DNA of 64,000 nt, from assembly GCA_964493145.1 (NCBI GenBank), contig CAZBMV010000001.1, forward strand, positions 54,623 through 118,622, written 5' to 3'. The DNA is from an uncultured Candidatus Saccharibacteria bacterium. Its GTDB lineage: Bacteria; Patescibacteriota; Minisyncoccia; Phycocordibacterales; UBA918. A model generated the notes under the pieces. That model searched no databases. It saw only the letters and a list, made by a program, of their open reading frames with translations, and was not told the origin of the DNA. Both the position numbers and the translations under genes were made by a program. Each line of letters starts with the position of its first letter. The first letter of the stretch is position 1. Shown here in pieces: positions 4,593 to 50,200 of the stretch.

Positions 4593-4595
4593 ATT

Positions 4596-4613
4596 TGGGC
4601 GGCTACCGGGAAT
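4596..4613 (-). repeat. 18-nt duplicate of the tRNA-His 3' end (TGGGCGGCTACCGGGAAT), att-like
   Basis: Identical to 7335-7352 (the 3' end of the tRNA-His gene). A further 14-nt copy lies at 7061-7074 and an inverted 16-nt copy at 4745-4760. Confidence 0.55.
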
Positions 4614-4755
4614 ATCGGTCATTACATGACCAGTATCCGTTCAGGATATTTTTGTTCGTCTGACGACTCCAAAACTATCTCTGAACAGCTTCGATTCGCG
4701 TTACGGCTTTTCTGTTTCGTTGTCACCTCACAGAAAACCCTACGCCCGGTAGCCG

Positions 4756-4888: not shown

Positions 4889-5503
4889 CTATTTCTTGAG
4901 TAGATACTTGAGCCAGACCGTTTTCTTTCCTGGGTTGGTCCAAGCATCTTGTTTGATGACTTTCAAATTATATTGCTGAAAAATTTCTTGCAACTTTTCT
5001 GGTTGCCAGTATGAGAAGAACCTCTGATACTCATACCCGTAATCATTTTCCACAACTACTTTTTCGTCGTCACCCTCTTTAAGAGCAATGTGGAGTATCC
5101 CGCTTGGTTTGAGTATGCGACAAATTTCACCAAAAACAAAATTGATTTTTTCTTTTGGAATATGGAGTAGCGACGCTTTTGCAAACACTCCATCAAAATA
5201 CTCGTCGGCATAAGGCAAGACGGAAAGCATATCTCCTTGCAGAAAAGTTGCTGATGGTAATTTCTCACGAGCAATCTTTAAGAGGCCTTCTGATAAATCA
5301 AACCCCTGTACATCAAAACCTCGGAGCGTGAGTTTCTTTGTTTCAACGCCAGGACCGCAACCTAAATCTAAAACTTTTGCATTTTGGAAAAGTGCTTCAC
5401 TAAAAAAGTCCACGAAGTCATTGTCCCAGCTATCGTTCTCGTGGTCCTTTGAGTAATCGCTGGCAATTTTGTTATATGTATCTGCAAGTATGTTCGTTTC
5501 CAT
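4889..5503 (-). CDS. class I SAM-dependent methyltransferase
   Basis: 204 aa with motif I VLDLGCGPG and the acidic post-I region; small-molecule MTase-like. Confidence 0.75.
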   Translation of the reverse strand: METNILADTYNKIASDYSKDHENDSWDNDFVDFFSEALFQNAKVLDLGCGPGVETKKLTLRGFDVQGFDLSEGLLKIAREKLPSATFLQGDMLSVLPYADEYFDGVFAKASLLHIPKEKINFVFGEICRILKPSGILHIALKEGDDEKVVVENDYGYEYQRFFSYWQPEKLQEIFQQYNLKVIKQDAWTNPGKKTVWLKYLLKK

Positions 5504-5540
5504 TCAAAAAGTATATCAAATTACCCCACACTCTGGTTCA

Positions 5541-6068
5541 CTACACATTAACCTCAATAATCCCTCCATCACCAATTTTGTCAGGAATACTTTTTCCTAA
5601 ATGTGCGAGTATCTGTTTAATTGGTCCACCGTGAGATACGACCGCTATCGTGTTGTATTCCTTCTGTGTTATTTTTCCAAACGTATCTAAAACTCTGTTT
5701 CTAAAATCAGCAAAACTTTCCCCTTCAGGGTCAGTATTCAAAGGGTCCTTGTGTGCCTCAACCACTTCAGGATATTTCTCCAAAGCTTCTGCCTTCGTAA
5801 GACCAGAGAGTACTCCGTAACTCCTTTCTTCAAGTCCATTCACAATCTCAACAGGACACTCTATTTTTGAGCTTATGATTTCGGCACTTTCCCTCGCTCT
5901 AATTAAAGGGCTGACGAAAATAATTTCAATGCCTTTGCCAACTAAATTATCAGCCGTTACGGTGAGCTGTTCCTTTCCCAAGTCAGTAAGGTTGTCATCG
6001 TAGCTCCCGCCGTATCTGTCTTCCACATCACCCGTCGTCTCCCCGTGCCTTACCAAAAATATTTTCAT
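5541..6068 (-). CDS. histidine phosphatase family protein (phosphoglycerate-mutase-like)
   Basis: 175 aa; N-terminal LVRHGET (RHG catalytic motif) and a downstream SHGG. Confidence 0.75.
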   Translation of the reverse strand: MKIFLVRHGETTGDVEDRYGGSYDDNLTDLGKEQLTVTADNLVGKGIEIIFVSPLIRARESAEIISSKIECPVEIVNGLEERSYGVLSGLTKAEALEKYPEVVEAHKDPLNTDPEGESFADFRNRVLDTFGKITQKEYNTIAVVSHGGPIKQILAHLGKSIPDKIGDGGIIEVNV

Positions 6069-6083
6069 ACTTACCTTAACTAT

Positions 6084-6992
6084 TTATTTAATCCAAGAAG
6101 CTAACGCGTCTGCCAAATTTTGCTCAAAACCGTTATACCCGTGGTCAGCATCACCGAGAATATTCGTCTCAACCTTGGGTGAGTTGAGTAAAGCCCCCTT
6201 TATCCTATTCATTGTCTCCTCAATTGAAACTACGAGGGCATCATCTTTCCTTCCCATAATTGCATATGTTGGAATGGTTATCTTTGCGAGGAGTGGGAGT
6301 GTATCACTGGGGTTATGAAAGTTGAATATTGCGACAGGCGAATGTTCTCCGCCAAGACTAATGTACGACTTCGCCGAAAGCGGACTTTCATCCCATAATG
6401 CAGGGTTCGGCAGAAGTTCATCGCCCCTCCCTTCGGCAACCATTTGTTGTGCGGTGTTCATATCTACCTCATAATTTTTATCCAACTTTATGAGACCGAC
6501 CATATCGGAGGGTGAAAGGAAAATGACCGAGGAAAGTCTTTCGTCATTTGCCTCTGCGGAATAATATGCAACCTTCGGAGCACCGAGACTGTGTCCCGAG
6601 AGATGAATGTTTGAGAAACCTCTTGACGAGACAAAATCAATCGCTGTTCGTATATCAATCAGACTGTCTTCAAATTTCTCATATGCGTTTCCAATTCTCA
6701 CAATCGTCCGCTTTCCGTCCATAATTTTCGTTAGGTCCTTCATCAGTTCGCAACCACGATTATTGAAAGCGAGGAATGCAATATTATTGCTTGTTAGAGT
6801 TTCGGCAATAGCATCTAGGAATTTGTTTTCATAAAAATTACCCGCCATTCCGTGAACGTGCACAAGGATTTTGCCAGTTGTCTGCTCTGGTTCATACAAA
6901 AGACCAACTAGCTCTAGACCGTCTTGTGTGACCATCCTATGGAATGATGTTTTCATAATGGTGATAGAAGTATACCAAAAATTAATTCTCAC
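6084..6992 (-). CDS. alpha/beta-fold hydrolase
   Basis: 302 aa; HVHGMAGN oxyanion-region motif and GHSLGA nucleophile elbow. Confidence 0.7.
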   Translation of the reverse strand: MRINFWYTSITIMKTSFHRMVTQDGLELVGLLYEPEQTTGKILVHVHGMAGNFYENKFLDAIAETLTSNNIAFLAFNNRGCELMKDLTKIMDGKRTIVRIGNAYEKFEDSLIDIRTAIDFVSSRGFSNIHLSGHSLGAPKVAYYSAEANDERLSSVIFLSPSDMVGLIKLDKNYEVDMNTAQQMVAEGRGDELLPNPALWDESPLSAKSYISLGGEHSPVAIFNFHNPSDTLPLLAKITIPTYAIMGRKDDALVVSIEETMNRIKGALLNSPKVETNILGDADHGYNGFEQNLADALASWIK

Positions 6993-7059: not shown

Positions 7060-7073
7060 AGGGCGGCTACCGG

Positions 7074-7163
7074 GTGAGAAAGTGCGGGGCACTTTTGCAA
7101 GAGGTTGTCGACAGTTTGAGGACACGAGAACTGTCATACAACCTGAACAGTTCCTGTAAGGAA
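7074..7163. ncRNA. structured repeat element, family 2, copy 1 (candidate small RNA / 3'-UTR element)
   Basis: GTGAGAAAGTGC-GGGG-GCACTTTTGCAAGAGGTTGTCGACAG...CTGTCATACAACCTGAACAG-TTC-CTGTAAGGAA. A second copy at 61283-61379 keeps the stems through compensatory changes. Confidence 0.35.
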
Positions 7164-7289
7164 TCGGCGTCCAACTCTAGTTCACTACGTTCACAAGAGT
7201 TACCTGCCCGCGGTTCGCTGGTTCGTCGCATTATGAGAGCGACTTACATCGCGAACCGTTCGATTCCGGACGCGAGCTCCGCTCGCTTA

Positions 7290-7345
7290 GCCGCCCAGAC
7301 ATGTGAAAAGCCCCTTACGGGGCCTTCACATGTCTGGGCGGCTAC
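7290..7345. repeat. 18-bp perfect inverted repeat (GCCGCCCAGACATGTGAA...TTCACATGTCTGGGCGGC) enclosing a GCCCC/GGGGC inner hairpin; overlaps the tRNA-His 3' end
   Basis: Seen directly. Likely processing or terminator structure downstream of tRNA-His on the minus strand. Confidence 0.5.
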
Positions 7346-7408
7346 CGGGAATCGAACCCGAGACACAAGTGCCACAAACTTGAGTTTTACCACTAAACTA
7401 TAGCCGCC
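7335..7408 (-). tRNA. tRNA-His (anticodon GTG), with extra 5' G
   Basis: RC reads GGCGGCTATAGTTTAGTGGTAAAACTCAAGTTTGTGGCACTTGTGTCTCGGGTTCGATTCCCGGTAGCCGCCCA. Cloverleaf folds, anticodon loop is TTGTGGC, T-loop is TTCGATT. Confidence 0.85.
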
Positions 7409-7437: not shown

Positions 7438-8337
7438 TCACTTGTCGAGGTGTTCCCCTTTCAAAAAGCGCGTGCTGTCTTGAAAGACACTCCCCTCCTT
7501 GAACTCGTTGTGAAATTCGGATGGCAGAAGCTGAATGTCGTCGTCCGGTAAAATCCATCGCACTTCGTCTATTTCGTGCGCGTGAGTCTTCTCTCTTTCA
7601 TCGTGCGTAAGGTAATCAGCACCGTTTGCAATCTCAAAGAAAAATTCAACTGACTGTACTCCGCCGGTATTTACAAATGTGTACACGTATAAGAGTCTGC
7701 CTACCACCGGTTTCACGCCAAGCTCTTCTACGAGTTCCCGTTCTATACACTCTTTCGGATTTTCTCCAACATCAAGATGTCCCCCCGGAAGTGCGTAAAA
7801 ATCTCGCTCCGGGTGATGGACGGCGAGAAGTTTCCCATCGTGAATGATAACCGCGCGACTGCGGACGGTGTGTGTATGCATGGACGTAAGTATACAAGAA
7901 AAACGAGTGCGGGAGCACTCGTTTGATGGACATTCGTTTGGTGACTTTGGTGGAAGATCATTGAGTAAGCTTAAAACCATTGCGCGTTTTTCGGCAAAAT
8001 CAAAATGTGGGTGTGTTTGACTGCACCAATCAATCGCTCGCACCCATGCGCACACGAGGCGCCTCCCTTCCAGGGAGAGCCCTATGTACACTCCGGGGTT
8101 CCGGTAAAACCACTCAATGAAACAGGCCGATGCGTTGCACTCAGCCCGTATTGCCGCGAGTGCATTGTATGCTCTGCAAACGTTACGAAATTCAAACGCC
8201 AAGTACACCGTAATAACGGTAAAGCACACGACTACTCCCTGTATCATGTGAACCTCCCGAGAGAACGAATACTTCATATACTGTACACAATAAAAGAGAA
8301 ACATGGAACAATCTTCCCAAATCCTCTGCCCATACAA
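7438..8337 (-). CDS. NUDIX hydrolase; the functional protein probably starts at the internal Met (7881), giving ~147 aa
   Basis: C-terminal half carries the Nudix box GGHLDVGENPKECIERELVEELG. The N-terminal 150 aa of the long ORF is low-quality sequence running toward tRNA-Leu. Confidence 0.7.
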   Translation of the reverse strand: MYGQRIWEDCSMFLFYCVQYMKYSFSREVHMIQGVVVCFTVITVYLAFEFRNVCRAYNALAAIRAECNASACFIEWFYRNPGVYIGLSLEGRRLVCAWVRAIDWCSQTHPHFDFAEKRAMVLSLLNDLPPKSPNECPSNECSRTRFSCILTSMHTHTVRSRAVIIHDGKLLAVHHPERDFYALPGGHLDVGENPKECIERELVEELGVKPVVGRLLYVYTFVNTGGVQSVEFFFEIANGADYLTHDEREKTHAHEIDEVRWILPDDDIQLLPSEFHNEFKEGSVFQDSTRFLKGEHLDK

Positions 8338-8364
8338 AAAGACCGGCAGAAAGCCGGTCTTTTT
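8336..8364. terminator. hairpin + T-run (AAAAAGACCGGC-AGAA-AGCCGGTCTTTTT)
   Basis: Seen directly, between the tRNA-Leu 3' end and the NUDIX ORF. Confidence 0.5.
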
Positions 8365-8367
8365 GTA

Positions 8368-10998: not shown

Positions 10999-11071
10999 GG
11001 GCGCTTAGCTCAGTTGGTAGAGCAACTCGTTTACACCGAGAAGGTCAGGGGTTCGAGTCCCTTAGCGCCCA
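10999..11071 (+). tRNA. tRNA-Val (anticodon TAC)
   Basis: GGGCGCTTAGCTCAGTTGGTAGAGCAACTCGTTTACACCGAGAAGGTCAGGGGTTCGAGTCCCTTAGCGCCCA; cloverleaf folds with anticodon loop TTTACAC. Confidence 0.85.
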
Positions 11072-11291
11072 CAAAGAAAACCCGCTCTGTGGGTTTTTGA
11101 CTGGGCGCTAAGCACAGCACCTGCGTGCTGTGCGTGAGGGCTCGAAAAGAATTTGTATATTTTTTCTATACGAAATGAAAAAATACAAATTCTCGGGTAG
11201 AAAAAAGTTATGAACGTAGTGAATTACTTTTTGACACCGAGACCTCCACCGCCCACACATACAAAAAATCGCATCGGCGGTTTTTTGTTTT

Positions 11292-11314
11292 TGTGCCTCG
11301 ACCAGGAATCGAAC
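11292..11314 (-). repeat. 23-nt duplicate of the tRNA-Arg(TCT) 3' end (TGTGCCTCGACCAGGAATCGAAC)
   Basis: Identical to 11438-11460; lies 125 bp beyond the tRNA 3' end and itself sits inside a CCAGGAATCGAA...TTCGATTCCTGG inverted repeat. Confidence 0.55.
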
Positions 11315-11439
11315 ATTACATGTTCAGTACACCTTGTCGCTATTTTGTTTCCTTACGTCACAAAATAGCTGGCAAGGTCTTCGATTCCTGGACCCAATCA
11401 CAGAAAAACCGGCATGGAGCCGGTATTTTTGTGATTGTG

Positions 11440-11512
11440 TGCCTCGACCAGGAATCGAACCTGGAATAACGGCTTAGAAGTCCGCAGTTATATCCATTTA
11501 ACTATCGAGGCA
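11440..11512 (-). tRNA. tRNA-Arg (anticodon TCT), imperfect anticodon stem
   Basis: RC reads GCCTCGATAGTTAAATGGATATAACTGCGGACTTCTAAGCCGTTATTCCAGGTTCGATTCCTGGTCGAGGCA. Acceptor and T-arm are canonical; loop is CTTCTAA. Confidence 0.6.
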
Positions 11513-11569
11513 TAACTTATCTGTTTAGAACGAACGTAGTGTACAGAGGAGACTGGCTCCCCGCAAGAC

Positions 11570-11950: not shown

Positions 11951-12477
11951 ACCTTTTTAAATTTTGTTACGCGTACCTCGCACGCCCCCTTCCACAACAG
12001 CCCACTTTCTGTCGCACCCTTTTCCAGCCGAACGGAACTCAACACACCCTGATATGGAAGATGCTCAAGAATTTTAAATGTGTGAAGAACAGCATCATGT
12101 TCGCCCTCAATACTCACATTCACGACGAGCGTTTCAAACGTTTCGTCTATTGGCTGTACCGTGAGCGAGTTTGTCACGAGCGTGACTCGTTGTTCTCGTG
12201 CGATATCCTCAACGAGAGTGAGGAACGTAATAACGTCCGCTTCTTCAAGGATTCTTGAAGCGACAAATTCTCTCTCCGCCTTCGTATTCTCAAGAGCGGT
12301 CGTGAGAGTTGCGAGCGACTTTTTGTGGAACTCAATCTCCGCCTGCTCAGTGCTCTTTGTGTGAAGTACGACTTTTCGTTTCTCCACTTCACGAACAAAG
12401 AACGCTGTTGCAATGATGGTGCCGCAGAGAAAGAGTCCTCCGATAGCAGCAACAATTTTTGAATGGTGTGAAAACAT
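11947..12477 (-). CDS. pilO: type IV pilus assembly protein PilO-like
   Basis: 176 aa: N-terminal TM helix, coiled coil and periplasmic domain; sits between pilN and the last operon gene. Confidence 0.45.
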   Translation of the reverse strand: MFSHHSKIVAAIGGLFLCGTIIATAFFVREVEKRKVVLHTKSTEQAEIEFHKKSLATLTTALENTKAEREFVASRILEEADVITFLTLVEDIAREQRVTLVTNSLTVQPIDETFETLVVNVSIEGEHDAVLHTFKILEHLPYQGVLSSVRLEKGATESGLLWKGACEVRVTKFKKV

Positions 12478-15573: not shown

Positions 15574-15660
15574 GGAAGGGTGACAGAGTGGTCGATTGTA
15601 CCTGTCTTGAAAACAGGAGTCTGGGAAACCGGACCGCGAGTTCGAATCTCGCCCCTTCCG
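15574..15660 (+). tRNA. tRNA-Ser (anticodon TGA), long variable arm
   Basis: GGAAGGGTGACAGAGTGGTCGATTGTACCTGTCTTGAAAACAGGAGTCTGGGAAACCGGACCGCGAGTTCGAATCTCGCCCCTTCCG. Confidence 0.85.
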
Positions 15661-15787
15661 CAAAACTAGAAAATTCAGGGTTCTTCCCTGGATTTTTTAG
15701 TTTCTGCGCAGGAGATTCGAAGCTGTTCAGAGATATTTTGGGAGTGATAGCGAACAAAAATATCCTGAACGGGTACTGAAACTGTAA

Positions 15788-15811
15788 GTTTCGAATCTCG
15801 CCCCTTCCGCC
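15788..15811 (+). repeat. near-identical (22/24) duplicate of the tRNA-Ser 3' end, ~130 bp downstream; followed by a terminator hairpin at 15821-15850
   Basis: GTTTCGAATCTCGCCCCTTCCGCC versus the tRNA 3' end AGTTCGAATCTCGCCCCTTCCGCA. Confidence 0.55.
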
Positions 15812-15909
15812 AAAATTGGAAAGCCCATATACGATATGTGGGCTTTTTAGTTTTTCACACTTCAACACAGAGAACAAAATTCACATAGACAGCGTGCTAC
15901 AATACACAC

Positions 15910-16472: not shown

Positions 16473-16475
16473 CGG

Positions 16476-16517
16476 TATACGAAAAACACGTCACGTATGT
16501 GACGTGTTTTTCGTATA
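16476..16517. terminator. 19-bp perfect palindrome hairpin (TATACGAAAAACACGTCAC-GTAT-GTGACGTGTTTTTCGTATA) directly after the tRNA
   Basis: Seen directly; symmetric A/T runs allow bidirectional termination or processing. Confidence 0.5.
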
Positions 16518-16794
16518 GCACGCAAACTGCTTTGCGTGCGTACAGTGGTGCCAAGTGGAACCATGTTTCGGCTATTACTAATGCCGAAACAGGCGAGCTC
16601 GGGGTGAGAAGCGAATACTTGGAGCTTCGCAAGACCTTGAGCACGCTAGTGCGAAAGGTGTACCGCTTCTGTAAGAAGAAAGTGCTTACTATTTTGGAAA
16701 CGAAGTAGAACAAAATAGTTAGCAACTTGACCCCACCGTGCCCTCATCAGCCGCAACCAAAATCTAGCGTCTATTGCTTGCTTCAAAACTTAGT

Positions 16795-21022: not shown

Positions 21023-21203
21023 ATAGACATCTGCGGTGCCTGTGGTATAGTTTTGGTGCGCAGGAATGCGCTTTTTCATTTTCTTTTTTGTCTTTACAAA
21101 TTAGAATATAAACATGTTTGGTATATTTCCACACATCCGCCTTACAGGCGCTGTACACCTTTAGGGTATTTTTGTTCGTAAACTCCAATAATTCCACTAA
21201 AGG

Positions 21204-21232
21204 TCCGGAAAAGTGCCCCGCACTTTTCCGCC
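21204..21232. repeat. hairpin AAAAGTGC-CCC-GCACTTTT abutting the tRNA-Lys 5' end; same stem as the first hairpin of the 7074 element, inverted
   Basis: Seen directly. Confidence 0.4.
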
Positions 21233-21237
21233 CATAG

Positions 21238-21310
21238 CTCAGCCGGTAGAGCAGCTCCCTTTTAAGGAGAAGGTCCCAGGTTCGATCCCTGGTGGGCGGA
21301 CAAAATTTTT
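21238..21310 (+). tRNA. tRNA-Lys (anticodon TTT)
   Basis: CCGCCCATAGCTCAGCCGGTAGAGCAGCTCCCTTTTAAGGAGAAGGTCCCAGGTTCGATCCCTGGTGGGCGGA; loop CTTTTAA. Confidence 0.8.
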
Positions 21311-21340: not shown

Positions 21341-21366
21341 CCGGGGGACAGTTTTTAAGGGATCGA
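21341..21366 (+). terminator. intrinsic terminator AAAAAACTGTCC-GGG-GGACAGTTTTT
   Basis: Seen directly, 30 nt after tRNA-Lys. Confidence 0.55.
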
Positions 21367-21430
21367 AGACCTTGCGAGATACCTTTGCGAGTGAAGCGAA
21401 GCAAAGTATCCGCAAGGTGTACTGCTCGTG

Positions 21431-21447
21431 TAACGAGAGATACCCTG
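21431..21447 (+). repeat. 17-nt direct duplicate of the tRNA-Lys 3' end (CCCTGGTGGGCGGACAA)
   Basis: Identical to 21297-21313. Confidence 0.5.
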
Positions 21448-21549
21448 GTGGGCGGACAAGCGTTAAGAAACCCTGACCTTCGTCAGGGTTTTAGCTTGTC
21501 CGAGCCGCAGCGATGTTTTGCCGACCGCAAGGAAGCAAAACCGCGAGGC

Positions 21550-22022
21550 GGGGTCGCGAGTGCTTAGATAAATATTTATGAAATTAATATTTAACTTAGC
21601 AACTCGTGACGACAAGGTTTGTTTAGTACGCAAACCACTTTGCGTACGGCGCTTGTCCGAGCCGCAGCGATGTGGCCAGAAAATAACGAGCGTAGCGAAT
21701 ATATTTTCTGAGTCTGTCTTAAAATTCTATTCAAAATGAATTTTAAGACGAAAGCTGTCAAAAAGGCAAAACCGCGAGGCGGGGTCGCGAGTGCTTATGA
21801 GCGAAGCGAATTAGGAACAGCAGTCTGGGAGACTGCTGTTCCGTGACGACAACGCCATTGGGGTCGCGAGTGCTTAACGAACGCAGTGAGTTTAGGAATA
21901 ATAATCTGGGAGATTGTTATTCCGTGACGACAAGATTTGTTTAAGCGAGCTGGGGTCGCGAGTGCTTATGAGCGAAGCGAATTAGGAACAGCAGTCTGGG
22001 AGACTGCTGTTCCGTGACGACA
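21550..22022 (+). repeat. tandem array of four homologous ~66-74-nt structured units (21550-21615, 21781-21852, 21860-21933, 21952-22022)
   Basis: Each unit is GGGGTCGCGAGTGCTTA + variable region ending in a 12-13-bp hairpin + CGTGACGACA(A). Units 2 and 4 are identical; unit 3 keeps its hairpin through compensatory changes. Upstream partial repeats GCAAAACCGCGAGGC x2 and CTTGTCCGAGCCGCAGCGATGT x2. Confidence 0.6.
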
Positions 22023-35873: not shown

Positions 35874-36965
35874 CTATTTGTTCATTGGCATGACGAGATA
35901 CCTAAGTGAATTATCATGTACTCCTTCAATAACCATTGGCCGTCCAAACCCGGCACATTTAAGGATAATGCTCTCGCTCTGTATGTGGGGGAGTGCCTCA
36001 CTAATGTACCGTTGATTGAAGTTAAGGGTTATATCCTCTCCCTCCACAGTCGCTTGGATTGATTCTGTTGTTGCGCCCGCCTCCCCGCTCTGTGCTGAGA
36101 GGGTAAATGTACCACCGGAAATTGTAATGGTGAGCTGAAGAAATTTATTGAGGAAAATGTTTGTTTTCTTTAGTGCTTGTGAAAGGTTGTTTGTGAGGAG
36201 GGTTGTGTTTGTTTTGTACTCTTTAGGAATAATTTGTGTGTAGTCTGGAAACGAGCCGGTGATGAGACGAGAGGTGATGTAGATATTATCAACAGAGAGA
36301 GCGCATTGGTTTTCTGTAATAAAAATTTGTACATCTCCCTGCACCTCTTCAACAACACGCGCGAGCTCAAGTGCGTTTTTATATGGAATTAGAATTGGTT
36401 CCTCAAGGGTAATGTTCTTTTGTGGAATTGTTTTCTCCATTAACCTAAAAGAGTCTGTTGCCACAAATGTGAGGGTATGCTCTTTTTTTTGGTGAATATA
36501 AATACTTCCTAATTCAGGCTTAATTGATGATTGGGACGCGGTAAACGCTGTTGTTTTTATTCCCAGGGCAAAAAGAGATCCTTGGATGGTGTGTGGGGTG
36601 CTCTGTATGTGTGGAATTGTTGGAAAATCCTCAATTGGAATACTTTTAATTTCTGTTCGCGACGCTTTTGATTCAACAACCAACACATCTCCTTCTTTAT
36701 AGAGGGTAACTGTTGGTTGTGTAATAAGATTTATTGTTTGTACAAGAATGTTTGCTGGAACGGCGATACTACCATCCTCTTGTTGTGTCACGTCAACATA
36801 CCCCTCAATTCCAATTTCAAGATTTGTTGCCTTAATGGTGAGTTTTGTGTTTTTTACCTCAAGGAGTACACATTGGAGTATGGGGAGAGTTATGTGTTTT
36901 GTGCATACTTTAGAAACACTCTCAAGTGTTTGTTTAAATTTTTTTATATCAAGTGAGATGTGCAT
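35874..36965 (-). CDS. dnaN: DNA polymerase III beta sliding clamp
   Basis: 363 aa; MHISLDIKKFKQTLESVSKV...LLEVKNTKLTIKATNLEIGIE is the typical domain-I start; directly downstream of dnaA. Confidence 0.8.
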   Translation of the reverse strand: MHISLDIKKFKQTLESVSKVCTKHITLPILQCVLLEVKNTKLTIKATNLEIGIEGYVDVTQQEDGSIAVPANILVQTINLITQPTVTLYKEGDVLVVESKASRTEIKSIPIEDFPTIPHIQSTPHTIQGSLFALGIKTTAFTASQSSIKPELGSIYIHQKKEHTLTFVATDSFRLMEKTIPQKNITLEEPILIPYKNALELARVVEEVQGDVQIFITENQCALSVDNIYITSRLITGSFPDYTQIIPKEYKTNTTLLTNNLSQALKKTNIFLNKFLQLTITISGGTFTLSAQSGEAGATTESIQATVEGEDITLNFNQRYISEALPHIQSESIILKCAGFGRPMVIEGVHDNSLRYLVMPMNK

Positions 36966-37244
36966 ATGTGTGTTTTTCTTTTTTTAAAACCGGACTACGT
37001 TTTACTATTATGTATGTGAATGTGTTGATAGTGCGATAAAAGTACGTAATTGTAGTATTTTTTGTAATATTTTTTTGTATAATTCTGTGTATAGGGTGGT
37101 TATTTTTTCACATAAATATATTTTCTATGTGAATATCTTTTACATTAAAAAATAACGATACTTTTTTTCATACCTATACACACAGTACGATAATACTTTT
37201 CCTATTTTATAAAGAACTTTTCAACACACTTCCCCACCACCCAT
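36966..37244. promoter_or_regulatory. AT-rich dnaA-dnaN intergenic region; candidate oriC/DUE with weak DnaA-box-like 9-mers
   Basis: About 75% A+T with many T/A runs. Degenerate TTATNCACA-like sites: TATTCACAT (complement of ATGTGAATA), ATTCACATA. Confidence 0.45.
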
Positions 37245-38624
37245 CTACTTGAGAAGTAAACGAATTTGAGAAATTTCTTCCTCTAACTCCGTACTCTCTT
37301 TCACCTCATGTTTTATTTTTTCACACGAGTGGATGACGGTGGTGTGGTCACGACCCCCCAACTTTTGCCCAATTGCCGGGTATGAAACTTGAAAATCCTC
37401 TCGGAGGATGTACATGATAAGTTGACGTGGCTTCACAACCTCCTTCCTACGCGTCTTTTCGTAAATACTTGCAGGATCAATGTCATAAAATCGTGCAATT
37501 TTATCCACCACATCAGAAACCGCAAGTGATTTGCGTGGGCGGGTACTGTTTTTTATAAGTACCTTCACCTCATCAAGCGAGAGCGCTCGTCCGAGGAGTT
37601 GTGATTGGCATAAAATGGTATTGAGTGCACCCTCCAACTCACGAACGTTTCCCTCTATGGTCTGTGAGAGGTGTTCAACCACATCCTCACCGAGGACGAG
37701 ACTATTTTGCGCCGCTTTTGATTTGAGAATGGCGCCCCGCGATTCAAAGTCAGGTTCAGGAATATCAACAATCATTCCCTGTGAAAAACGGGAACGGAGA
37801 CGTTCTTCCATATTTGACATGAGTGCCGGGTGAACATCACTTGAGAAGACAATCTGCTTGTTATTGTCATGCATGGCGTTGAAGAGGTGGAAGAGTTCTT
37901 CCTGCGTCTTCTCCTTATTCATAAGAAACTGCACATCGTCCATAATGAGAACGTCATACTGGCGGTACTTGTCCTTAAAATTATTTGCCGTTCCGTTCTG
38001 AAGTGAATTCATGTAGTCAACGGTAAAACGCTCACTTGTGACGTAGTACACCTTCTTCCCCGCCCGCTTCAATTGATTTCCGACAGCCTGAATGAGGTGT
38101 GTTTTTCCATGTCCCGTTTTCCCGTACACAAAGAGTGGGTTGTACGCAATGCCGGGTTTGTTTACGACCGTTCGTGCCGCAGCATGCGCGAGCTCGTTAA
38201 ACGGACCAACGACAAAATTATCAAACACATACTTCGGGTTAAGATTGTCACTCTTATTTATGTAGTACTCCTCAAGAGGAAGCGCGGCATTCACCGTTTG
38301 CTTTCGTGAAGATTCGTGTCGCTTGTCGTTTCGTTGCACAACAATATACTCTATGCTCCGCGCATAAGGAGTGAGGTCGCGAAGTGTTTTTAAAATCAAC
38401 GTCTGAAATTTATCCGCAACCCAGTCACGAACAAAAACACTTGGAACACCAAGCGTTACCGTCCCGTCTTCAAGTGAAACAATGTGTGTATCACGGAACC
38501 ACGTTTTAAAATTTGCGGAGGTTATGGAGAGTTCTATATTGACGAGCGCATCATCCCACAATTTCTTCACATCAATCTGTTCCGTCTGAATAATGTTGGT
38601 AGAGATGTTTGAAATAGAACTCAT
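37245..38624 (-). CDS. dnaA: chromosomal replication initiator DnaA
   Basis: AAA+ motifs GKTGHGKTHL and VLIMDDVQF; C-terminal DNA-binding domain (...IGQKLGGRDHTTVIH). Confidence 0.9.
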   Translation of the reverse strand: MSSISNISTNIIQTEQIDVKKLWDDALVNIELSITSANFKTWFRDTHIVSLEDGTVTLGVPSVFVRDWVADKFQTLILKTLRDLTPYARSIEYIVVQRNDKRHESSRKQTVNAALPLEEYYINKSDNLNPKYVFDNFVVGPFNELAHAAARTVVNKPGIAYNPLFVYGKTGHGKTHLIQAVGNQLKRAGKKVYYVTSERFTVDYMNSLQNGTANNFKDKYRQYDVLIMDDVQFLMNKEKTQEELFHLFNAMHDNNKQIVFSSDVHPALMSNMEERLRSRFSQGMIVDIPEPDFESRGAILKSKAAQNSLVLGEDVVEHLSQTIEGNVRELEGALNTILCQSQLLGRALSLDEVKVLIKNSTRPRKSLAVSDVVDKIARFYDIDPASIYEKTRRKEVVKPRQLIMYILREDFQVSYPAIGQKLGGRDHTTVIHSCEKIKHEVKESTELEEEISQIRLLLK

Positions 38625-38842
38625 AGAAGACGTGTTAAATGACAGAGAGAATTATACCCACCTGTGGAGAAGTGTAAATACGTGAGAAAAAACGGCGCAT
38701 TTAATATCGTGTGTGTACAGGGGATGTGCACAACGTGTGGAGAGAACTGTATACGCAAAGAGTCAATACCACAGACCAAAGCGAAGGTCCCCGCTGTTGA
38801 TTAAATGTGTTTTTTGGTGTAGAGTGTCACGCACATAATCAT
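38625..38842. promoter_or_regulatory. dnaA/rpmH divergent promoter region with DnaA-box-like TGTGGAGAA/TGTGGAGAG (= TTCTCCACA)
   Basis: Two copies of an 8/9 DnaA-box match 50 bp apart, upstream of dnaA. Confidence 0.45.
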
Positions 38843-38980
38843 ATGCCAAAAAGAACGTATCAACCAAAGAAGCGAAAGCGAGCGACAACGCACGGTTTCC
38901 TCGTTCGTGCAAAATCAAGCACAGGCGCAAACGTATTAAAAGCACGCCGACGAAAAGGACGTGCAAAATTAAGCGTTTAA
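38843..38980 (+). CDS. rpmH: 50S ribosomal protein L34
   Basis: 45 aa [45 protein letters not shown]; canonical position before rnpA; below the ORF-track length cutoff. Confidence 0.85.
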
Positions 38981-38995
38981 GATACACTTGTAGAG

Positions 38996-39322
38996 ATGCT
39001 TCCACGAAAAGAACGATTGAGTAGGAAAGAATTCAATCGGTTTTTTTCTTTTGGGAAAAAGGTACACTCGGCATCATTCACACTCGTGTACGCTCCCCAT
39101 GAGGAACTCCACGTATCCGTCGTTGTTTCAAAAAAAGTGGCACCGACAGCAGTTGTGCGAAACAAGGTGCGTCGGAGGGTGTACGACATTGTGAGAAGAG
39201 CGCGCGACGAACGAAACATTCACGGAGTATACATCTTTCTTACAAAACCATCGGTGGCACGCACAGACTACACAACACTCAAGGAAGAGGTTCGCAAGCA
39301 CCTCCACACCATTATAAAGTAA
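38996..39322 (+). CDS. rnpA: ribonuclease P protein component
   Basis: RLSRKEFNRFF...FTLVY... basic 108 aa, immediately after rpmH. Confidence 0.8.
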   Translation: MLPRKERLSRKEFNRFFSFGKKVHSASFTLVYAPHEELHVSVVVSKKVAPTAVVRNKVRRRVYDIVRRARDERNIHGVYIFLTKPSVARTDYTTLKEEVRKHLHTIIK

Positions 39323-39332
39323 CCAACAGACC

Positions 39333-40079
39333 ATGACGTACATTTGGCATACATTTTTCTTTGACCCAATCTATAACAGTCTCATTTTTTTTATTGATGT
39401 TGTTCGCGGAGGCGACGTGGGCGTTGCCATCATTTGTACCGTTGTTCTTGTAAAAACCATCATTCTTCCCCTCTCGCTCAAAGCGGCACGAACGCAACTC
39501 GTCATGCGTGACATAGAACCAAAACTCACTGAAATAAAAGAAAAGTATAAAGACCAACGAGAAACACAGGCACTGAAGACCATGGAGCTATTCCGTGAAG
39601 CAAAGATCAACCCACTCACGAGCATACTTCTCCTGTTCATTCAAATTCCAATCATCATCGCACTCTATTTTTCCGTGTATTCAGGTGGGGGTGTCAAACT
39701 GCCTGAAATAAATGTTGCAATCCTCTACTCGTTTATTCCCACCCCAGAAACGGTCAGTATGATTTTTCTCGGCTTCATGGACATTACCGCAAAGAGCCTC
39801 CCGCTCGCCTTCATTGCCGGCCTCACACAATTCATACACACACACCTCTCACTCCCACCGCAAAAGCCACGAGATCCAAAAGCCGAACCGAATTTTAAAG
39901 ATGACTTTGCGCGAAGTATGCACATACAAATGAAGTACGTCATGCCGATACTCATCTTCGTTGTTGCGTACACCATTTCAGCGGCAATCGCCCTCTACTT
40001 CACCGTGAGCAACCTCATGGCTATCGCACAAGAGTACGTCGTCCGCCACAAAGGCCTTAAGGTAACACACACAAATTAG
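39333..40079 (+). CDS. yidC: membrane protein insertase YidC (short form)
   Basis: 248 aa with 5 TM helices and conserved NPLTS, following rnpA. Confidence 0.75.
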   Translation: MTYIWHTFFFDPIYNSLIFFIDVVRGGDVGVAIICTVVLVKTIILPLSLKAARTQLVMRDIEPKLTEIKEKYKDQRETQALKTMELFREAKINPLTSILLLFIQIPIIIALYFSVYSGGGVKLPEINVAILYSFIPTPETVSMIFLGFMDITAKSLPLAFIAGLTQFIHTHLSLPPQKPRDPKAEPNFKDDFARSMHIQMKYVMPILIFVVAYTISAAIALYFTVSNLMAIAQEYVVRHKGLKVTHTN

Positions 40080-40844: not shown

Positions 40845-41993
40845 TTATTGCAGATCAAACATCCAGAGCGCATTGTCGTTCTTGTTGATGAAGTAGAGCG
40901 CCGATTCATCCGGTGCAATGCCAATCGTGAGCACGTCAACCTCTCGTCCCGTTTCCGTAAGAAAATTGCTTAATACCGTTGCTTTGCCTTCTCTAATATC
41001 AATTCGCCAGAGCACGTCACTGTAGGAGATGCTCCCCATGTACCAATCATCAGGAAATCGCTTCCCTGCACCGAGGTCTTCAGGTGCAGAACAGTACAGG
41101 TATGAAGAACCACTGATACACTTTTCCGGAATGACAGTAATCGGAACAACGGAAGGGTTCCCCTCAGAAAGGTTTGCGAGAGAGTAGACAACACCATCAG
41201 CAAGCACCGTTGTAATCGGTGTTGCGTGGTGCACAATACCCATAAGGCCATACCCACCCGCGGTTACGTACCGAAGCCTATTTTTAGACACTTCATAAAG
41301 TGACCCTCGCTGCATTGCTGTTGGAACAGTGTACACGTACGTTGTCTCGCCCCAAATTACGTGGATATCCCGAAGCGGGATGCTAAACAACTGCACGGTC
41401 GTTTCTTTTTGCACATCGTATGCGTACCCCACAGAACCACTTTCATCCTTGAGTAGGTAGTACAACGTGCTCGTCGCTTCTCCAAAATGTATTTCAGTTG
41501 CTCCTGCCGGTAATTTTTTTCCTACGAATGAGCCACCCTGTGCTGATGCAAGTGTTCCAACGAGCGTTTCTGTATTAAGTTGAGACAGAAGCGTGATCGC
41601 AACAGAAGCGCCGTTTCGTGAAAATACTGCCTCGCGTGCACCAGGGAGCGTTGTGCCACTGATGAGTGACTCAGAACCATTCGCGGTGTTGATTTGGTAG
41701 ATGTGTCCGGTCCCCTGCTCCACGTAACGTATACCACCATCAACAAAACTCGCTCCCGCGACAGGGCGAACGGTAAGTTGTTTCAACTTCTGTATCTTAC
41801 CTGCGATGTTTATATCCTGAACATCAACGACCGAGTCATGAACTGCGACATCAGACGAATTTCCTCCAATACCAAAGTTTGAAAAAACTTCCGAACCATT
41901 CTTGGGAGACCCGAAGGTGAAAAGGTACGCCCACACACCTAGAATGATGAGAATGAGAAGGGTTCCTATAATAATGAGAATTGTTTTTTTCAT
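40845..41993 (-). CDS. secreted/membrane-anchored repeat-rich protein (beta-propeller-like), first gene after the T4SS-like cluster
   Basis: N-terminal TM/signal, Gly/Ser/Thr-rich repeats, no catalytic motifs. Confidence 0.4.
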   Translation of the reverse strand: MKKTILIIIGTLLILIILGVWAYLFTFGSPKNGSEVFSNFGIGGNSSDVAVHDSVVDVQDINIAGKIQKLKQLTVRPVAGASFVDGGIRYVEQGTGHIYQINTANGSESLISGTTLPGAREAVFSRNGASVAITLLSQLNTETLVGTLASAQGGSFVGKKLPAGATEIHFGEATSTLYYLLKDESGSVGYAYDVQKETTVQLFSIPLRDIHVIWGETTYVYTVPTAMQRGSLYEVSKNRLRYVTAGGYGLMGIVHHATPITTVLADGVVYSLANLSEGNPSVVPITVIPEKCISGSSYLYCSAPEDLGAGKRFPDDWYMGSISYSDVLWRIDIREGKATVLSNFLTETGREVDVLTIGIAPDESALYFINKNDNALWMFDLQ

Positions 41994-42736
41994 TGTGGCA
42001 TACCTTGATTTCCGTCATTACCGTAAGACGCATCTCCATAAGTACATTCTCCAACTGAAGCACTTATTATTGTGAACGTACCACTACGTGCGCTACATTG
42101 CGCGCGCGCACCACTATCATCGTAATCAACGATGTTATAACACGAAGGACAAACAGGATCAAAAATAGGAGTAAGTGAGTAACGCTCCGTTTGTATGGTA
42201 ACGTTTGTGTTTCGAATCGCCTCATCGGCAAGTTGTTCTGACGTTCTACCTTCGCCCGTATCGATGCCACCTGCTCCTGTTCCCCGCGAAGACTGATTAA
42301 GTTGAACTTTCGTTGCGTTTTCCAACACATTCAATTTCGTGAGTTCCGGGTTGATGGTGTAGAGCACGATGTACGGGAGGAGGAGTATGGCAAGTCCCAT
42401 GAGCACGCCTTTAATATCATCTTTAGCAGAAGATTTACCAGTCACCACTTCAGTTGTCGCATATTTAACACCCGCGATGGCTATTTTTACAACACCGAAA
42501 AGCGCACCGATGGAAATGAGGAGAATGTATATTTTGTTTATGTAATCAGGAAGGCTCGTCGCACCAGATGTATTGAGTCCGGGGACGTTCACGAGGGGCG
42601 TGTATTTTGCCGTCTGTGCGAGAGTGGGAGTCGCAAAAACAGCAACAAAGAAAAAAACTAAAAAGACAAGAGAAAAAACGCGGGCGAGATGAGTTTTTGT
42701 TGTACATGAAGAAAACATACGCTTATTCAAAAACAA
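41990..42736 (-). CDS. TrbC/VirB2-like pilin candidate with Cys-rich C-terminal extension
   Basis: Signal peptide, then two hydrophobic helices (ILLISIGALFGVVKIAIAGV and VLMGLAILLLPYIVLYTI) separated by a short polar loop, as in VirB2/TrbC. Confidence 0.4.
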   Translation of the reverse strand: MFLNKRMFSSCTTKTHLARVFSLVFLVFFFVAVFATPTLAQTAKYTPLVNVPGLNTSGATSLPDYINKIYILLISIGALFGVVKIAIAGVKYATTEVVTGKSSAKDDIKGVLMGLAILLLPYIVLYTINPELTKLNVLENATKVQLNQSSRGTGAGGIDTGEGRTSEQLADEAIRNTNVTIQTERYSLTPIFDPVCPSCYNIVDYDDSGARAQCSARSGTFTIISASVGECTYGDASYGNDGNQGMPQ

Positions 42737-43733: not shown

Positions 43734-43794
43734 GCTACAGACATTCTCTGCTTAACTAATAAACAAAAGAGAGTTATTCCCAGGGTAGTCCTCA

Positions 43795-44490: not shown

Positions 44491-44495
44491 AGTGT

Positions 44496-46292: not shown

Positions 46293-46297
46293 AGGTG

Positions 46298-46918: not shown

Positions 46919-46920
46919 AA

Positions 46921-47322
46921 TTAACGTTCGGTTTGATTGAGCTCAAGTTTTTTAGTCAGCGCCGAAATGGAATTTTGGTGAACGGAAGAAAGATCTGATG
47001 TTTGCTGGGCTTCTTCCCCGTAGCCGTTTGTCACCGTCTGTGAGGATTCGCGTTTCCAAAGGTACAGTTTATTCTTTGTCGTATACCGCGCCGCTGACTC
47101 AAGGAAGAGTGAGAACGGGCGATTGTTGACGCGGTGAAATGCGAGCGAAAAAGAGAGGGCGGCAATCGGGAGGCCAAAGAGAATCGCCAAAATAAAAGGA
47201 GCGCTCAAAAAAAGAATGACGAGGATGCCCACTCCACCGGCGAGGTACACGAACTGGCGCCACGTAAGGGGGCCAATAACCTTGTCTTCAATCTCAATGA
47301 ATTGAGGAACCTCAAAGCGCAT
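46921..47322 (-). CDS. PrgI/VirB3-like small membrane protein
   Basis: MRFEVPQFIEIEDKVIGPLTWRQFVYLAGGVGILVILFL...; hydrophobic hairpin, positioned before VirB4 as in Gram-positive T4SS. Confidence 0.45.
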   Translation of the reverse strand: MRFEVPQFIEIEDKVIGPLTWRQFVYLAGGVGILVILFLSAPFILAILFGLPIAALSFSLAFHRVNNRPFSLFLESAARYTTKNKLYLWKRESSQTVTNGYGEEAQQTSDLSSVHQNSISALTKKLELNQTER

Positions 47323-47378
47323 ATATCAGTATTGTACCTTATCCGCACGCCCGCTCCCCCACGGGCGTGCGGATAAAA

Positions 47379-47930: not shown

Positions 47931-47931
47931 A

Positions 47932-50199: not shown

Positions 50200-50200
50200 A

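What the first reader, a model, noticed from the sequence alone, without database searches (positions are those of the whole stretch)
11292..11512. Most tRNA genes in the window carry a partial duplicate of one end 30-170 bp away
- Besides tRNA-His, duplicates of a tRNA 3' end are seen for tRNA-Arg(TCT) (23 nt, 125 bp away), tRNA-Ser (22/24 nt, 128 bp away) and tRNA-Lys (17 nt, 120 bp away).
- Partial copies of the 5' end are seen for tRNA-Gly (21/25 nt, 46 bp away) and tRNA-Val (10/11 nt, 30 bp away).
- A partial inverted copy of the 3' end follows tRNA-Arg(GCG) (16730-16750).
- The segments between a tRNA and its duplicate carry strong hairpins or terminators but no ORFs.
- The prevalence suggests serial visits by small tRNA-targeting integrative elements that later decayed, or a lineage-specific tRNA-linked repeat mechanism.
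Basis: seen in the sequence. Interest (0 to 1): 0.5.

Follow-up and report, generated by a model that had tools for sequence, protein, structure and literature searches.

The report
Structured mini-insertions that copy tRNA ends
The partial tRNA duplicates are real: each is one arm of a roughly 100-base folded element, apparently undescribed, that sits as an insertion behind tRNA genes in Saccharibacteria and carries a second copy of the tRNA's 3' end.

Summary
Direct copies of the tRNA 3' end lie downstream of His, Arg(TCT), Ser and Lys (14-22 nt), and none of 300 random window segments matches as well. Inverted copies of the T-loop or 3' end lie 30-70 nt downstream of six tRNAs.

The duplicates are not random debris. 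Each is the 3' strand of the closing stem of one conserved three-way-junction element ("module A"). Its order is: complement of the T-loop/3' end, GAAG, long hairpin P2, GUACNG, 5-bp hairpin P3 with a GUA loop, then the copy running from the T-loop to the tRNA 3' end.

A covariance model finds 29 copies in 212 kb of related Saccharibacteria DNA. It confirms 115-128 of the copies that a DNA-pattern scan pulled from metagenomes. About 91% of cells are paired and 30 of 32 pairs show compensatory changes. No Rfam family matches.

The units behave as insertions:
- filled and empty orthologous sites exist;
- tandem arrays occur, and the outer copies are more decayed;
- the same core is found at different tRNAs;
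- one tRNA-His-type unit sits at a non-tRNA pseudo-site.

My best reading is that these are miniature, non-autonomous integrative elements that recombine in the block from the T-loop to the 3' end. No enzyme was identified. About half of the metagenome copies are not next to a tRNA. An RNA role is not excluded.

The parts
11439..11511 (-). tRNA-Arg(TCT); CCA is not encoded
   Evidence: ARAGORN; Rfam tRNA 62 bits
11395..11438 (-). Terminator hairpin with A- and T-tracts, lying between the tRNA and the module
   Evidence: Sequence; terminator scan hits on both strands at 11408-11424
11290..11396 (-). Module A of Arg(TCT). Anti-arm CCAGGAATCGAA at 11380-11391, then P2, GTACTG and P3, then the 22-nt copy of the tRNA 3' end at 11293-11314
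   Evidence: CM R1 111.7 bits; RNA fold -40.8 kcal/mol, z = -5.3; direct repeat 0/300 in the null
15574..15661 (+). tRNA-Ser(TGA)
15705..15813 (+). Module A of Ser. Anti-arm GAGATTCGAA; 21-nt copy of the 3' end at 15790-15810
   Evidence: CM 112.7 bits; orthologous copy in L003 with matching changes in the tRNA, the copy and the anti-arm
21228..21301 (+). tRNA-Lys(TTT)
21351..21459 (+). Module A of Lys. The copy of the 3' end lies at 21443-21457. Its T-loop part has decayed, and the anti-arm pairs better with the real tRNA
   Evidence: CM 95.8 bits; duplex energies -17.1 against -8.7 kcal/mol
7336..7407 (-). tRNA-His(GTG)
7061..7335 (-). Long composite unit behind tRNA-His. It runs terminator, GGGCGGCTA (complement of the acceptor 3' strand, forming a perfect palindrome with the tRNA end), GGAATCGAAC, several hairpins, then CCCGGTAGCCGCCC at 7061-7074
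   Evidence: fold -129 kcal/mol closed by the anti-X/X helix
4595..4790 (-). Orphan 'His-far' unit. It runs terminator, GGGCGGCTACCGGG, Px hairpin, module A core, then ATTCCCGGTAGCCGCCC (4597-4613). It is a ~185-nt insertion absent from the orthologous site in L003
   Evidence: CM 64.3 bits; filled/empty comparison
10999..11072 (+). tRNA-Val(TAC)
11073..11265 (+). Long composite unit behind tRNA-Val. It runs terminator, TGGGCGCTAAG (inverted copy of the 3' end, 11102-11112), hairpins, then ..CCGCCCAC
   Evidence: weak CM hit at 11131-11259 (21.5 bits); fold
8250..8367 (-). Behind tRNA-Leu: terminator, anti-arm AGAGGATTTG (8318-8327) and a degenerate module. L003 carries a full ~300-nt insertion at this point
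16473..16792 (+). Spacer between Arg(GCG) and Gly. It holds a rearranged composite module (core at 16616-16700) and inverted copies of the Arg(GCG) 3' end (TGGTGCC near 16545; GTGCCCTCATCAG at 16738-16750)
   Evidence: CM 19 bits; homologous piece in L009
16865..16935 (-). Truncated older tRNA-Gly upstream of tRNA-Gly. It keeps a 21/25 copy of the 5' end and an extended anticodon-arm hairpin, and breaks off in its T-loop (GAGTTCAAAA)
21118..21220 (-). Module A copy on the opposite strand, just upstream of tRNA-Lys; it has no tRNA-derived arms
   Evidence: CM 39.7 bits
61262..61392 (+). Module A copy with non-tRNA arms (AGGTCGGCTATC / GATAGCCGACCT). It abuts the stop codon of a ComM-like gene
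   Evidence: CM 26.1 bits

Best explanation
Each duplicate belongs to a small, non-coding insertion unit that cannot move on its own.

**Layout of a tRNA-linked unit.** The order is: terminator hairpin; complement of the tRNA's T-loop/T-stem, and in long forms of the acceptor 3' strand as well; junction GAAG; long hairpin P2; junction GUACNG; 5-bp hairpin P3 with a GUA loop; then a second copy of the tRNA from its T-loop to its 3' end.

**Shown by the data.**
- The structure is conserved by compensatory change.
- The units are insertions and are polymorphic between relatives.
- They form tandem arrays.
- The same cores occur at different tRNAs.
- One unit carrying the tRNA-His end landed at a non-tRNA site.

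**Inferred.** The unit integrates by recombination inside the identity block that runs from the T-loop to the tRNA 3' end.
- The tRNA is regenerated from the element-borne copy, which brings its own terminator.
- The old 3' end is pushed outward.
- This is the logic of tRNA-targeting genomic islands, shrunk to 125-190 nt.
- The folded, strand-specific structure would be the recombination substrate (single-stranded DNA) or a cofactor.
- The enzyme would act in trans from elsewhere in the genome. It was not identified.
For: Repeats are beyond chance:
- 0/300 null segments match as well for five tRNAs.

Structure:
- In 29 related copies, 90.9% of cells are paired and 27/32 pairs have changes on both sides; 0/500 shuffles reach this, and slid controls give about 42%.
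- In 115 metagenome copies, 91.2% of cells are paired and 30/32 pairs have double changes.
- In P2 and P3, G.U outnumbers A.C by 50 to 6 once one conserved C.A column is set aside. The fold is therefore read on the tRNA-sense strand.

Insertion behaviour:
- The His-far unit is a ~185-nt insertion between GACGTCGCC and the resident terminator, and the site is empty in L003.
- L003 has a ~300-nt insertion behind tRNA-Leu that the window lacks.
- L003 lacks the Val and Arg(TCT) units altogether.
- L014 and L015 have the same PilM protein but differ by 148 nt at tRNA-Arg.
- An identical tRNA-Arg(TCT) carries different core subfamilies in different genomes.

Island-like signature:
- 32 of 45 tRNA-linked metagenome copies have a direct repeat of at least 12 nt. 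By my reading of the listed repeats, about 22 of these start at the T-loop (TTCGA..) or at the G before it. They run to the tRNA end or up to about 12 nt beyond it.
- Distal copies are fossils of other tRNA alleles in L001, L014 and L011.
- Outer copies in tandem arrays are more degenerate.
- In Lys the anti-arm still matches the real tRNA while the distal copy has decayed.
Against: - No integrase or transposase lies in the window.
- No such gene recurs near 120 metagenome loci.
- 70 of the 115 metagenome copies assessed for this have no tRNA within 400 nt upstream, and only 3 of those 70 have a direct repeat.
- Classical attachment sites are not covariation-conserved hairpins.
- The direct-repeat extent varies widely: 4-6 nt at the pseudo-site, about 55 nt including the terminator at L003 Leu.
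- A 125-190-nt double-stranded circle is implausibly small, so a single-stranded intermediate has to be assumed.
- No excised form or circle junction was observed.
Confidence: 0.42

Rival explanations
1. The module is a functional RNA. It would be a cis-acting structure in tRNA trailers and other 3' regions, for example a processing, stability or decoy element, or a self-cleaving RNA. The tRNA-end copy would merely serve as one strand of its closing stem.
For: - Covariation is strong, and junction and loop bases are conserved while P1 varies freely.
- G.U exceeds A.C on the tRNA-sense strand in P2 and P3.
- All tRNA-linked copies are co-oriented with the tRNA.
- Each unit is followed by its own terminator.
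- A read-through transcript folds as a tRNA with a ~150-nt insertion in the T-loop.
Against: - The unit sits behind a strong intrinsic terminator, and no promoter-like site lies in front of it.
- Copies away from tRNAs show only a weak orientation bias relative to neighbouring genes, 28 against 18.
- Selection for a stem does not explain 20-33-nt exact duplicates of the tRNA end.
- It also does not explain the filled/empty sites or the pseudo-site insertion.
- No Rfam family matches, including the known ribozymes.
Confidence: 0.25
2. No dedicated enzyme is involved. The layout of tRNA end, hairpin, inverted copy, core and direct copy would arise from replication errors: snap-back priming at terminator hairpins and template switching at T-loop microhomology. 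Cores would then spread by gene conversion.
For: - In long forms the inverted copy abuts the foot of the terminator hairpin, giving a perfect palindrome of tRNA end, terminator and complement (His, Val, and L015 Arg).
- The inverted copy is the Watson-Crick complement of the 3' strand even where the tRNA stem has a G.U pair (Val).
- Junctions fall at GTTCRA-like sequences, including a D-arm pseudo-site in L008.
- Direct-repeat lengths are variable.
Against: - It does not explain why P2, P3 and the junction bases stay conserved, with compensatory changes, across 115 metagenome copies.
- It does not explain the many copies that lack tRNA-derived arms.
- In short forms the inverted copy skips the acceptor strand, so the palindrome is not continuous.
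Confidence: 0.12
3. The family is a REP/REPIN-like set of repeats moved as single-stranded DNA by a single-copy RAYT-type Y1 (IS200-like) transposase.
For: - A RAYT-like PF01797 gene lies 14 nt from a module in L090 and 660 nt from one in L105.
- That protein family is very large and highly conserved in Patescibacteria, with 7872 proteins at E <= 1e-20.
- The conserved hairpins are strand-specific, and the units have no linked ORF, no conserved terminal repeats and no fixed target duplication.
Against: - At the RAYT loci of two further lineages (six contigs searched) no module flanks the gene. One lineage has no module within 4 kb, even beside a tRNA-His.
- Two adjacencies among about 120 loci is only weakly above chance by my own estimate.
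- No RAYT gene lies in the window.
Confidence: 0.1
4. One reading: the units are ordinary decayed remnants of integrase-bearing tRNA-targeting islands.
For: - The direct-repeat signature and tandem accretion fit.
- Variable cargo genes lie next to the same tRNAs in relatives, and large serine recombinases lie beside tRNAs in L011 and L012.
Against: - The segments between the repeats are one conserved, structured family, not assorted debris.
- No integrase pseudogene lies within any unit.
- Unit sizes are tightly clustered at about 105-190 nt.
Confidence: 0.06

Closest known systems
tRNA-targeting genomic islands and prophages with T-loop-sublocation integration (the Islander database, PMC4383910, listed; the sublocation classes of Williams 2002 are cited from my own knowledge)
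   Same: - A displaced copy of the tRNA 3' part marks the far end of the insertion.
- The identity block starts in the T-loop and runs to or past the tRNA end.
- The element restores the tRNA.
- Tandem accretion occurs, with older copies lying further out.
   Different: - The units are 125-190 nt, with no integrase and mostly no cargo.
- The interior is a conserved three-way-junction fold.
- An inverted copy of the tRNA end is also present.
- Many family members are not at tRNAs.
Integron attC sites and other folded single-strand recombination sites such as CTX phage attP (from my own knowledge)
   Same: - Structure is conserved while sequence varies.
- The fold is strand-specific.
- The folded strand would recreate a duplex copy of the target core.
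- The units sit at the ends of small variable gene blocks.
   Different: - The R''/R' consensus (RYYYAAC / GTTRRRY) is absent.
- No intI-like gene was found.
- The direct repeats of 14-33 nt are not an integron feature.
REP/REPIN elements with RAYT, and palindromic repeats of reduced genomes such as Rickettsia palindromic elements and Correia elements (small repeats reviewed in PMC3184786, listed; the rest from my own knowledge)
   Same: - They are short, non-coding, multi-copy and hairpin-forming.
- They lie mostly in intergenic DNA near gene ends.
- No linked transposase gene is present.
- They occur in small genomes.
   Different: - The conserved part is internal and the ends vary, so there are no family-wide terminal repeats.
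- The fold is a three-way junction rather than a simple palindrome.
- The closing stem derives from the tRNA.
- The RAYT gene is not flanked by modules in the loci tested.
Casposons and CRISPR repeat duplication (Cas1-type integration; from my own knowledge)
   Same: - A long duplication of the target is produced, and the target is often the 3' end of a tRNA gene.
   Different: - No Cas1 gene was seen.
- The duplication length is not fixed.
- The elements have no terminal inverted repeats.

Membership tests
tRNA-targeting integrative element (genomic island type) | A displaced direct copy of the tRNA 3' part lies at the distal end | tested here: met
   His, Arg(TCT), Ser and Lys in the window; 32/45 tRNA-linked metagenome copies
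tRNA-targeting integrative element (genomic island type) | The identity block begins in the T-loop (or anticodon loop) and reaches the tRNA 3' end | tested here: met
   Repeats start at (G)TTCGA/TTCAA and end at the discriminator base or up to ~12 nt beyond it
tRNA-targeting integrative element (genomic island type) | An integrase gene lies inside the element next to the attachment site | tested here: not met
   No ORF lies in the units. No recombinase domain was found in the window's larger ORFs or recurrently near 120 loci
tRNA-targeting integrative element (genomic island type) | Orthologous sites are occupied in some genomes and empty in others | tested here: met
   His-far unit; L003 Leu; L003 Arg/Val spacer; L014 against L015
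MITE | Terminal inverted repeats are conserved across copies | tested here: not met
   P1 arms differ from copy to copy (tRNA-specific or unrelated). Only the interior is conserved
MITE | A short target-site duplication of fixed length | tested here: not met
   Repeat lengths range from 4-6 nt to ~55 nt, and most copies away from tRNAs have none
REP/REPIN with RAYT | The RAYT gene is flanked by the repeats | tested here: not met
   A module is adjacent in L090 only. No module flanks the RAYT gene in L143-L152
REP/REPIN with RAYT | A conserved GTAG tetranucleotide 5' of a simple palindrome, cleaved by RAYT | not testable with these tools
   The module has conserved GTAC and GTA(A) motifs within a three-way junction. 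Cleavage cannot be tested here
Integron attC | R''/R' core sites (RYYYAAC ... GTTRRRY) with extrahelical bases | tested here: not met
   The arms read ..GAATCGAAG and GTTCGATTCC, where C at position 4 breaks GTTRRRY
Integron attC | An adjacent intI gene and attI site | tested here: not met
   No tyrosine recombinase was found in the window ORFs scanned or among the 150 ORFs nearest to modules
Any Rfam family, including hammerhead, twister, pistol, hatchet and HDV-like ribozymes | A match to the curated covariance model | tested here: not met
   Only the eight tRNAs reach the gathering score. Nothing on the modules reaches a family's gathering score at E <= 5; the only overlap is a chance-level microRNA match (23 bits, E = 1.1) on the Arg(TCT) P2 hairpin
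Conserved structured single-strand element (generic) | Compensatory base changes beyond shuffled and slid controls | tested here: met
   Caveat: both alignments were fitted to the model

The most novel reading that the evidence does not exclude
Module A would be a folded single-strand attachment site, analogous to attC. Its closing stem would recreate a duplex copy of the tRNA T-arm. If so, Saccharibacteria would have a cassette system aimed at tRNA genes that inserts, stacks and swaps small units and cargo genes, including whole replacement tRNA alleles, at T-loops. A trans-acting recombinase would drive it.
Probability: 0.15. Interest if true: 0.85.

Novelty: new variant of a known kind. Interest (0 to 1): 0.62.

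Why it matters
Saccharibacteria have genomes of about 1 Mb with very little non-coding DNA. Even so, dozens of sites carry a folded element of 100-190 nt.

If these units are mobile, several things follow.
- They would be the smallest known insertions that regenerate a tRNA gene.
- They would explain why variable genes and alternative tRNA alleles cluster at tRNA genes in this lineage.
- They would point to a recombination activity, not yet found, that reads the T-loop.

If they are instead RNA elements, they are a large unannotated RNA family in an abundant and poorly studied group of bacteria.

Either way, genome annotation and island-finding tools that rely on displaced tRNA fragments will be misled by them.

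Tried and rejected
- **Rfam.** Scans at gathering score and at E <= 5 returned only tRNAs and chance-level matches.
- **Motif GAACGTAGTGAA.** It is not enriched across the window (12 matches against 6.1 expected). It matters only as a hairpin loop in the long units.
- **Viral contigs.** A core pattern gave 7 matches, none of which scores with the covariance model, so all are chance.
- **A 2.7-kb island at tRNA-His.** I first read the region from tRNA-His to the far copy as one island with three cargo genes. Comparison with L003 showed the far unit is a separate 185-nt insertion in conserved intergenic DNA.
- **DNA-level structure.** The first count (G.U 20, A.C 19) suggested no strand preference. 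The larger set reversed this once a conserved C.A column was recognised.
- **A linked protein.**
  - ORF clustering and Pfam scans of neighbouring ORFs found only housekeeping families.
  - The RAYT-like gene was followed up, but modules do not flank it elsewhere.
  - The large serine recombinases beside tRNAs in L011 and L012 could not be tied to the modules.
- **Hammerhead topology.** I compared the junction lengths and conserved bases by eye, and they do not fit.
- **Literature.** Three searches found no description of this element.
- **Protein structure tools.** They were not relevant, because the units have no ORF.

Full report
**Setting.** The window is a bacterial chromosome segment.
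- It carries PolA, ribosomal protein L19, UppS, PilM/PilN, a Mur ligase, a penicillin-binding protein, RuvB, TyrRS, DnaA/DnaN and a type IV secretion-like cluster.
- The closest species genomes are uncultured Candidatus Saccharibacteria MAGs, with PilM 73-79% identical.
- Eight tRNA genes lie between 7.3 and 21.3 kb. Six of them do not encode CCA.

**The observation.**
- I scored the best ungapped match of each tRNA to its 300-nt flanks. I compared it with 300 random 300-nt window segments per query.
- The direct 3'-end copies behind His (14 nt), Arg(TCT) (22), Ser (21) and Lys (15), and the 21/25 5'-end copy before Gly, were never equalled (0/300 each).
- A 12-mer search found a third copy of the tRNA-His end 2.7 kb downstream, together with its inverted copy.
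- Six tRNAs also have an inverted copy of the T-loop/T-stem or acceptor 3' strand 30-70 nt downstream. Each has 0-10/300 null segments at least as good.
- The Val '5'-end copy' is better read as one of these inverted 3'-end copies.
- An independent Logan assembly reproduces the Arg(TCT) unit for the 133 nt its contig covers (L007), so this is not an assembly artefact.

**What the duplicates belong to.**
- The segments behind Arg(TCT), Ser and Lys align with each other.
- They fold into the same three-way junction, with z-scores of -5.3, -3.2 and -4.0.
- The layout is: closing stem P1 (complement of the T-loop/T-stem paired with the duplicate), junction GAAG, long hairpin P2, junction GTACNG, and a 5-bp hairpin P3 with a GTA loop that runs straight into the duplicate.
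- A motif search finds five such cores in the window, all in tRNA flanks.
- A covariance model built from five copies finds further window copies:
  - 4595-4705 (the 'His-far' unit),
  - 21118-21220 (upstream of tRNA-Lys, opposite strand),
  - 61302-61392 (non-tRNA arms),
  - weak hits inside the long composite units behind His, Val and Arg(GCG).
- The long units start with the exact complement of the acceptor 3' strand. As a result, tRNA end, terminator and complement form one long palindrome, and the whole unit is closed by the helix between the complement and the copy.
- No Rfam family matches the modules.

**Relatives.**
- I fetched syntenic loci from related genomes through PilM homologues and a neighbouring protein.
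- The model finds 29 copies at E < 1e-5 in 212 kb, almost all beside tRNAs.
- On that alignment 90.9% of cells are paired and 27 of 32 pairs change on both sides. No shuffle out of 500 reaches this, and slid controls give about 42%.
- A second model confirms 128 copies in the first 100 of those loci.
- The 115 best copies show 91.2% paired cells and 30 of 32 pairs with double changes.
- These alignments were fitted to the model, which favours the structure. The gap to both controls is nevertheless large.

**Which strand folds.**
- In the first set, G.U and A.C cells were equal (20 against 19).
- In the larger set, 48 of the 86 A.C cells come from a single conserved C.A position.
- Apart from that column, P2 and P3 have 50 G.U against 6 A.C cells.
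- The fold is therefore selected on the tRNA-sense strand, either as RNA or as that strand of DNA.

**The units are insertions.** The window and L003 are 82-86% identical in DNA across the region.
- *His-far unit.* Terminator, complement, Px hairpin, core and tRNA-His-end copy together form a ~185-nt insertion. It lies between GACGTCGCC and the resident terminator AAAAAAGCCGGAGCGAATGCTCCGGC. L003 has the empty site. The target resembles only the last bases of the tRNA-His end, so the unit brought that copy with it.
- *L003 Leu.* L003 has a ~300-nt insertion behind tRNA-Leu that the window lacks. It is flanked by a ~55-nt direct repeat made of the terminator plus the anti-arm.
- *L003 Val and Arg(TCT).* L003 lacks both units and keeps only a 26-nt remnant.
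- *L014 against L015.* They encode the same PilM protein but differ by a 148-nt block upstream of tRNA-Arg(TCT). The block is the 5' 48 nt of another tRNA-Arg allele followed by a module. L008 and L012 carry similar remnants.
- *Window tRNA-Gly.* It is preceded by an older tRNA-Gly that breaks off in its T-loop.
- *Core subfamilies.* Three recur at different tRNAs, and an identical tRNA-Arg(TCT) carries different subfamilies in different genomes.

**Signature of the repeats.**
- Among the metagenome copies, 45 lie 40-250 nt downstream of a tRNA on the same strand, covering at least 16 amino-acid specificities.
- Of these, 32 have a direct repeat of at least 12 nt.
- By my reading of the listed repeats, about 22 of the 32 begin at the T-loop (TTCGA/TTCAA) or at the G before it. 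They run to the tRNA end or up to about 12 nt beyond it.
- Several distal copies match a different tRNA allele rather than the resident one (L001 and L014 Ser, L011 Val).
- In tandem arrays the outer copy is usually the more degenerate.
- In the window's Lys unit the anti-arm pairs with the real tRNA at -17.1 kcal/mol, but with the decayed distal copy at only -8.7 kcal/mol.
- This is the pattern expected if the element supplies the proximal copy and the old chromosomal end is left to decay.

**What does not fit a purely tRNA-bound element.**
- 70 of the 115 metagenome copies assessed have no tRNA within 400 nt upstream, and only 3 of those 70 have a repeat.
- Some of these still carry tRNA-like arms and look like orphans.
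- Others have unrelated arms.
- In two loci the anti-arm is the complement of the last 11 nt of an L11-like gene.
- The three-copy layout (sequence, complement, copy) is mainly a feature of tRNA-linked copies: 21/43 against 10/53.
- Orientation relative to neighbouring ORFs is only weakly biased, 28 against 18.

**Search for an enzyme.**
- No recombinase lies in the window.
- No protein family recurs near the modules.
- A RAYT-like Y1 transposase lies next to a module in L090 and L105. It belongs to a very large and conserved Patescibacteria family.
- At the RAYT loci of two further lineages (six contigs searched), however, no module flanks the gene.
- Large serine recombinases sit beside tRNAs in L011 and L012, but I could not link them to modules.

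**Interpretation.**
- Shown: a conserved, strand-specific fold; insertion polymorphism; a direct-repeat signature like that of tRNA-targeting islands; tandem accretion; carriage of the tRNA-end copy by the unit.
- Inferred: integration by recombination within the block from the T-loop to the tRNA 3' end; a trans-acting enzyme; a single-stranded intermediate.
- The main rival is a functional RNA in tRNA trailers.
  - The covariation and the strand asymmetry favour it.
  - The terminator in front of each unit, the missing promoter and the insertion behaviour argue against it.
- The two readings are not mutually exclusive.
- I found no description of the family in three literature searches. I therefore rate it a new variant of a known kind: small non-autonomous structured repeats, combined with tRNA-end regeneration.

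Noticed in passing
window 21480-21560 and 21772-21790; L003 13440-13560: A second repeated structured piece ('module B') follows module A behind Lys in the window and behind Leu in L003. Its sequence is GAGCCGsAGCGATGkTTTG..CAAAACCGCGAGGCsGGG, followed by a hairpin. The window has two copies of its TCGCGACCCCGCCTCGCGG stem.
   Followed up: partly
window 7181-7192 (-), 11212-11223 (+), 11532-11543 (+): GAACGTAGTGAA forms the loop of a hairpin (GGGCAGG-stem-loop-stem-GACGCC) in the long His and Val units. Its complement resembles the TACACT -10 region upstream of tRNA-Arg(TCT).
   Followed up: partly
window ~7085-7105 (-) and ~21205-21225 (+): The same small hairpin, AAAAGTGCCCCGCACTTT, occurs just before the tRNA-His-end copy and just upstream of tRNA-Lys.
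   Followed up: no
window 4889-6992: Three genes (alpha/beta hydrolase, histidine phosphatase, methyltransferase) lie between tRNA-His and conserved DNA. L003 has an unrelated 126-aa gene there instead, so this is a variable gene slot next to the tRNA.
   Followed up: partly
L009, L010, L011, L012 between tRNA-Arg(TCT) and tRNA-Val: Relatives carry different cargo genes between these two convergent tRNAs, which are adjacent in the window. The cargo includes rhodanese with a metallo-beta-lactamase fold protein, a GDSL lipase with OMP decarboxylase, and an AF_0692-like protein.
   Followed up: no
L003, L008, L012, L014 at tRNA-Arg(TCT): Two quite different tRNA-Arg(TCT) alleles (GCCTCG.. and GTCCCC../GTTCCC..) replace each other at the same locus. 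Each replacement leaves 5' remnants of the loser upstream.
   Followed up: partly
L011 654-2156; L012 20332-21095: Large serine recombinase genes lie immediately beside tRNA-Arg(GCG) and tRNA-His. In L011 the ORF end overlaps a module.
   Followed up: partly
L095 ~12260-12390; L058 ~240-360: A module sits directly after the stop codon of an L11-like ribosomal protein gene. Its 5' arm is the complement of the gene's last 11 nt.
   Followed up: no
L105 5684-6352; L090 48-839: A RAYT-like Y1 transposase family (PF01797) is very widespread across Patescibacteria, and its members are 60-80% identical (7872 proteins at E <= 1e-20).
   Followed up: partly
window 35874-40079: dnaN, dnaA and yidC lie together in the lowest-GC stretch of the window (0.40). 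This is probably the replication origin region.
   Followed up: no
window 40845-52575: A block of genes with no Pfam match lies around TraG-like and TrbL/VirB6-like proteins, forming a type IV secretion-like cluster. T4SS pilin genes were also the most frequent neighbours of modules in the metagenome loci.
   Followed up: no
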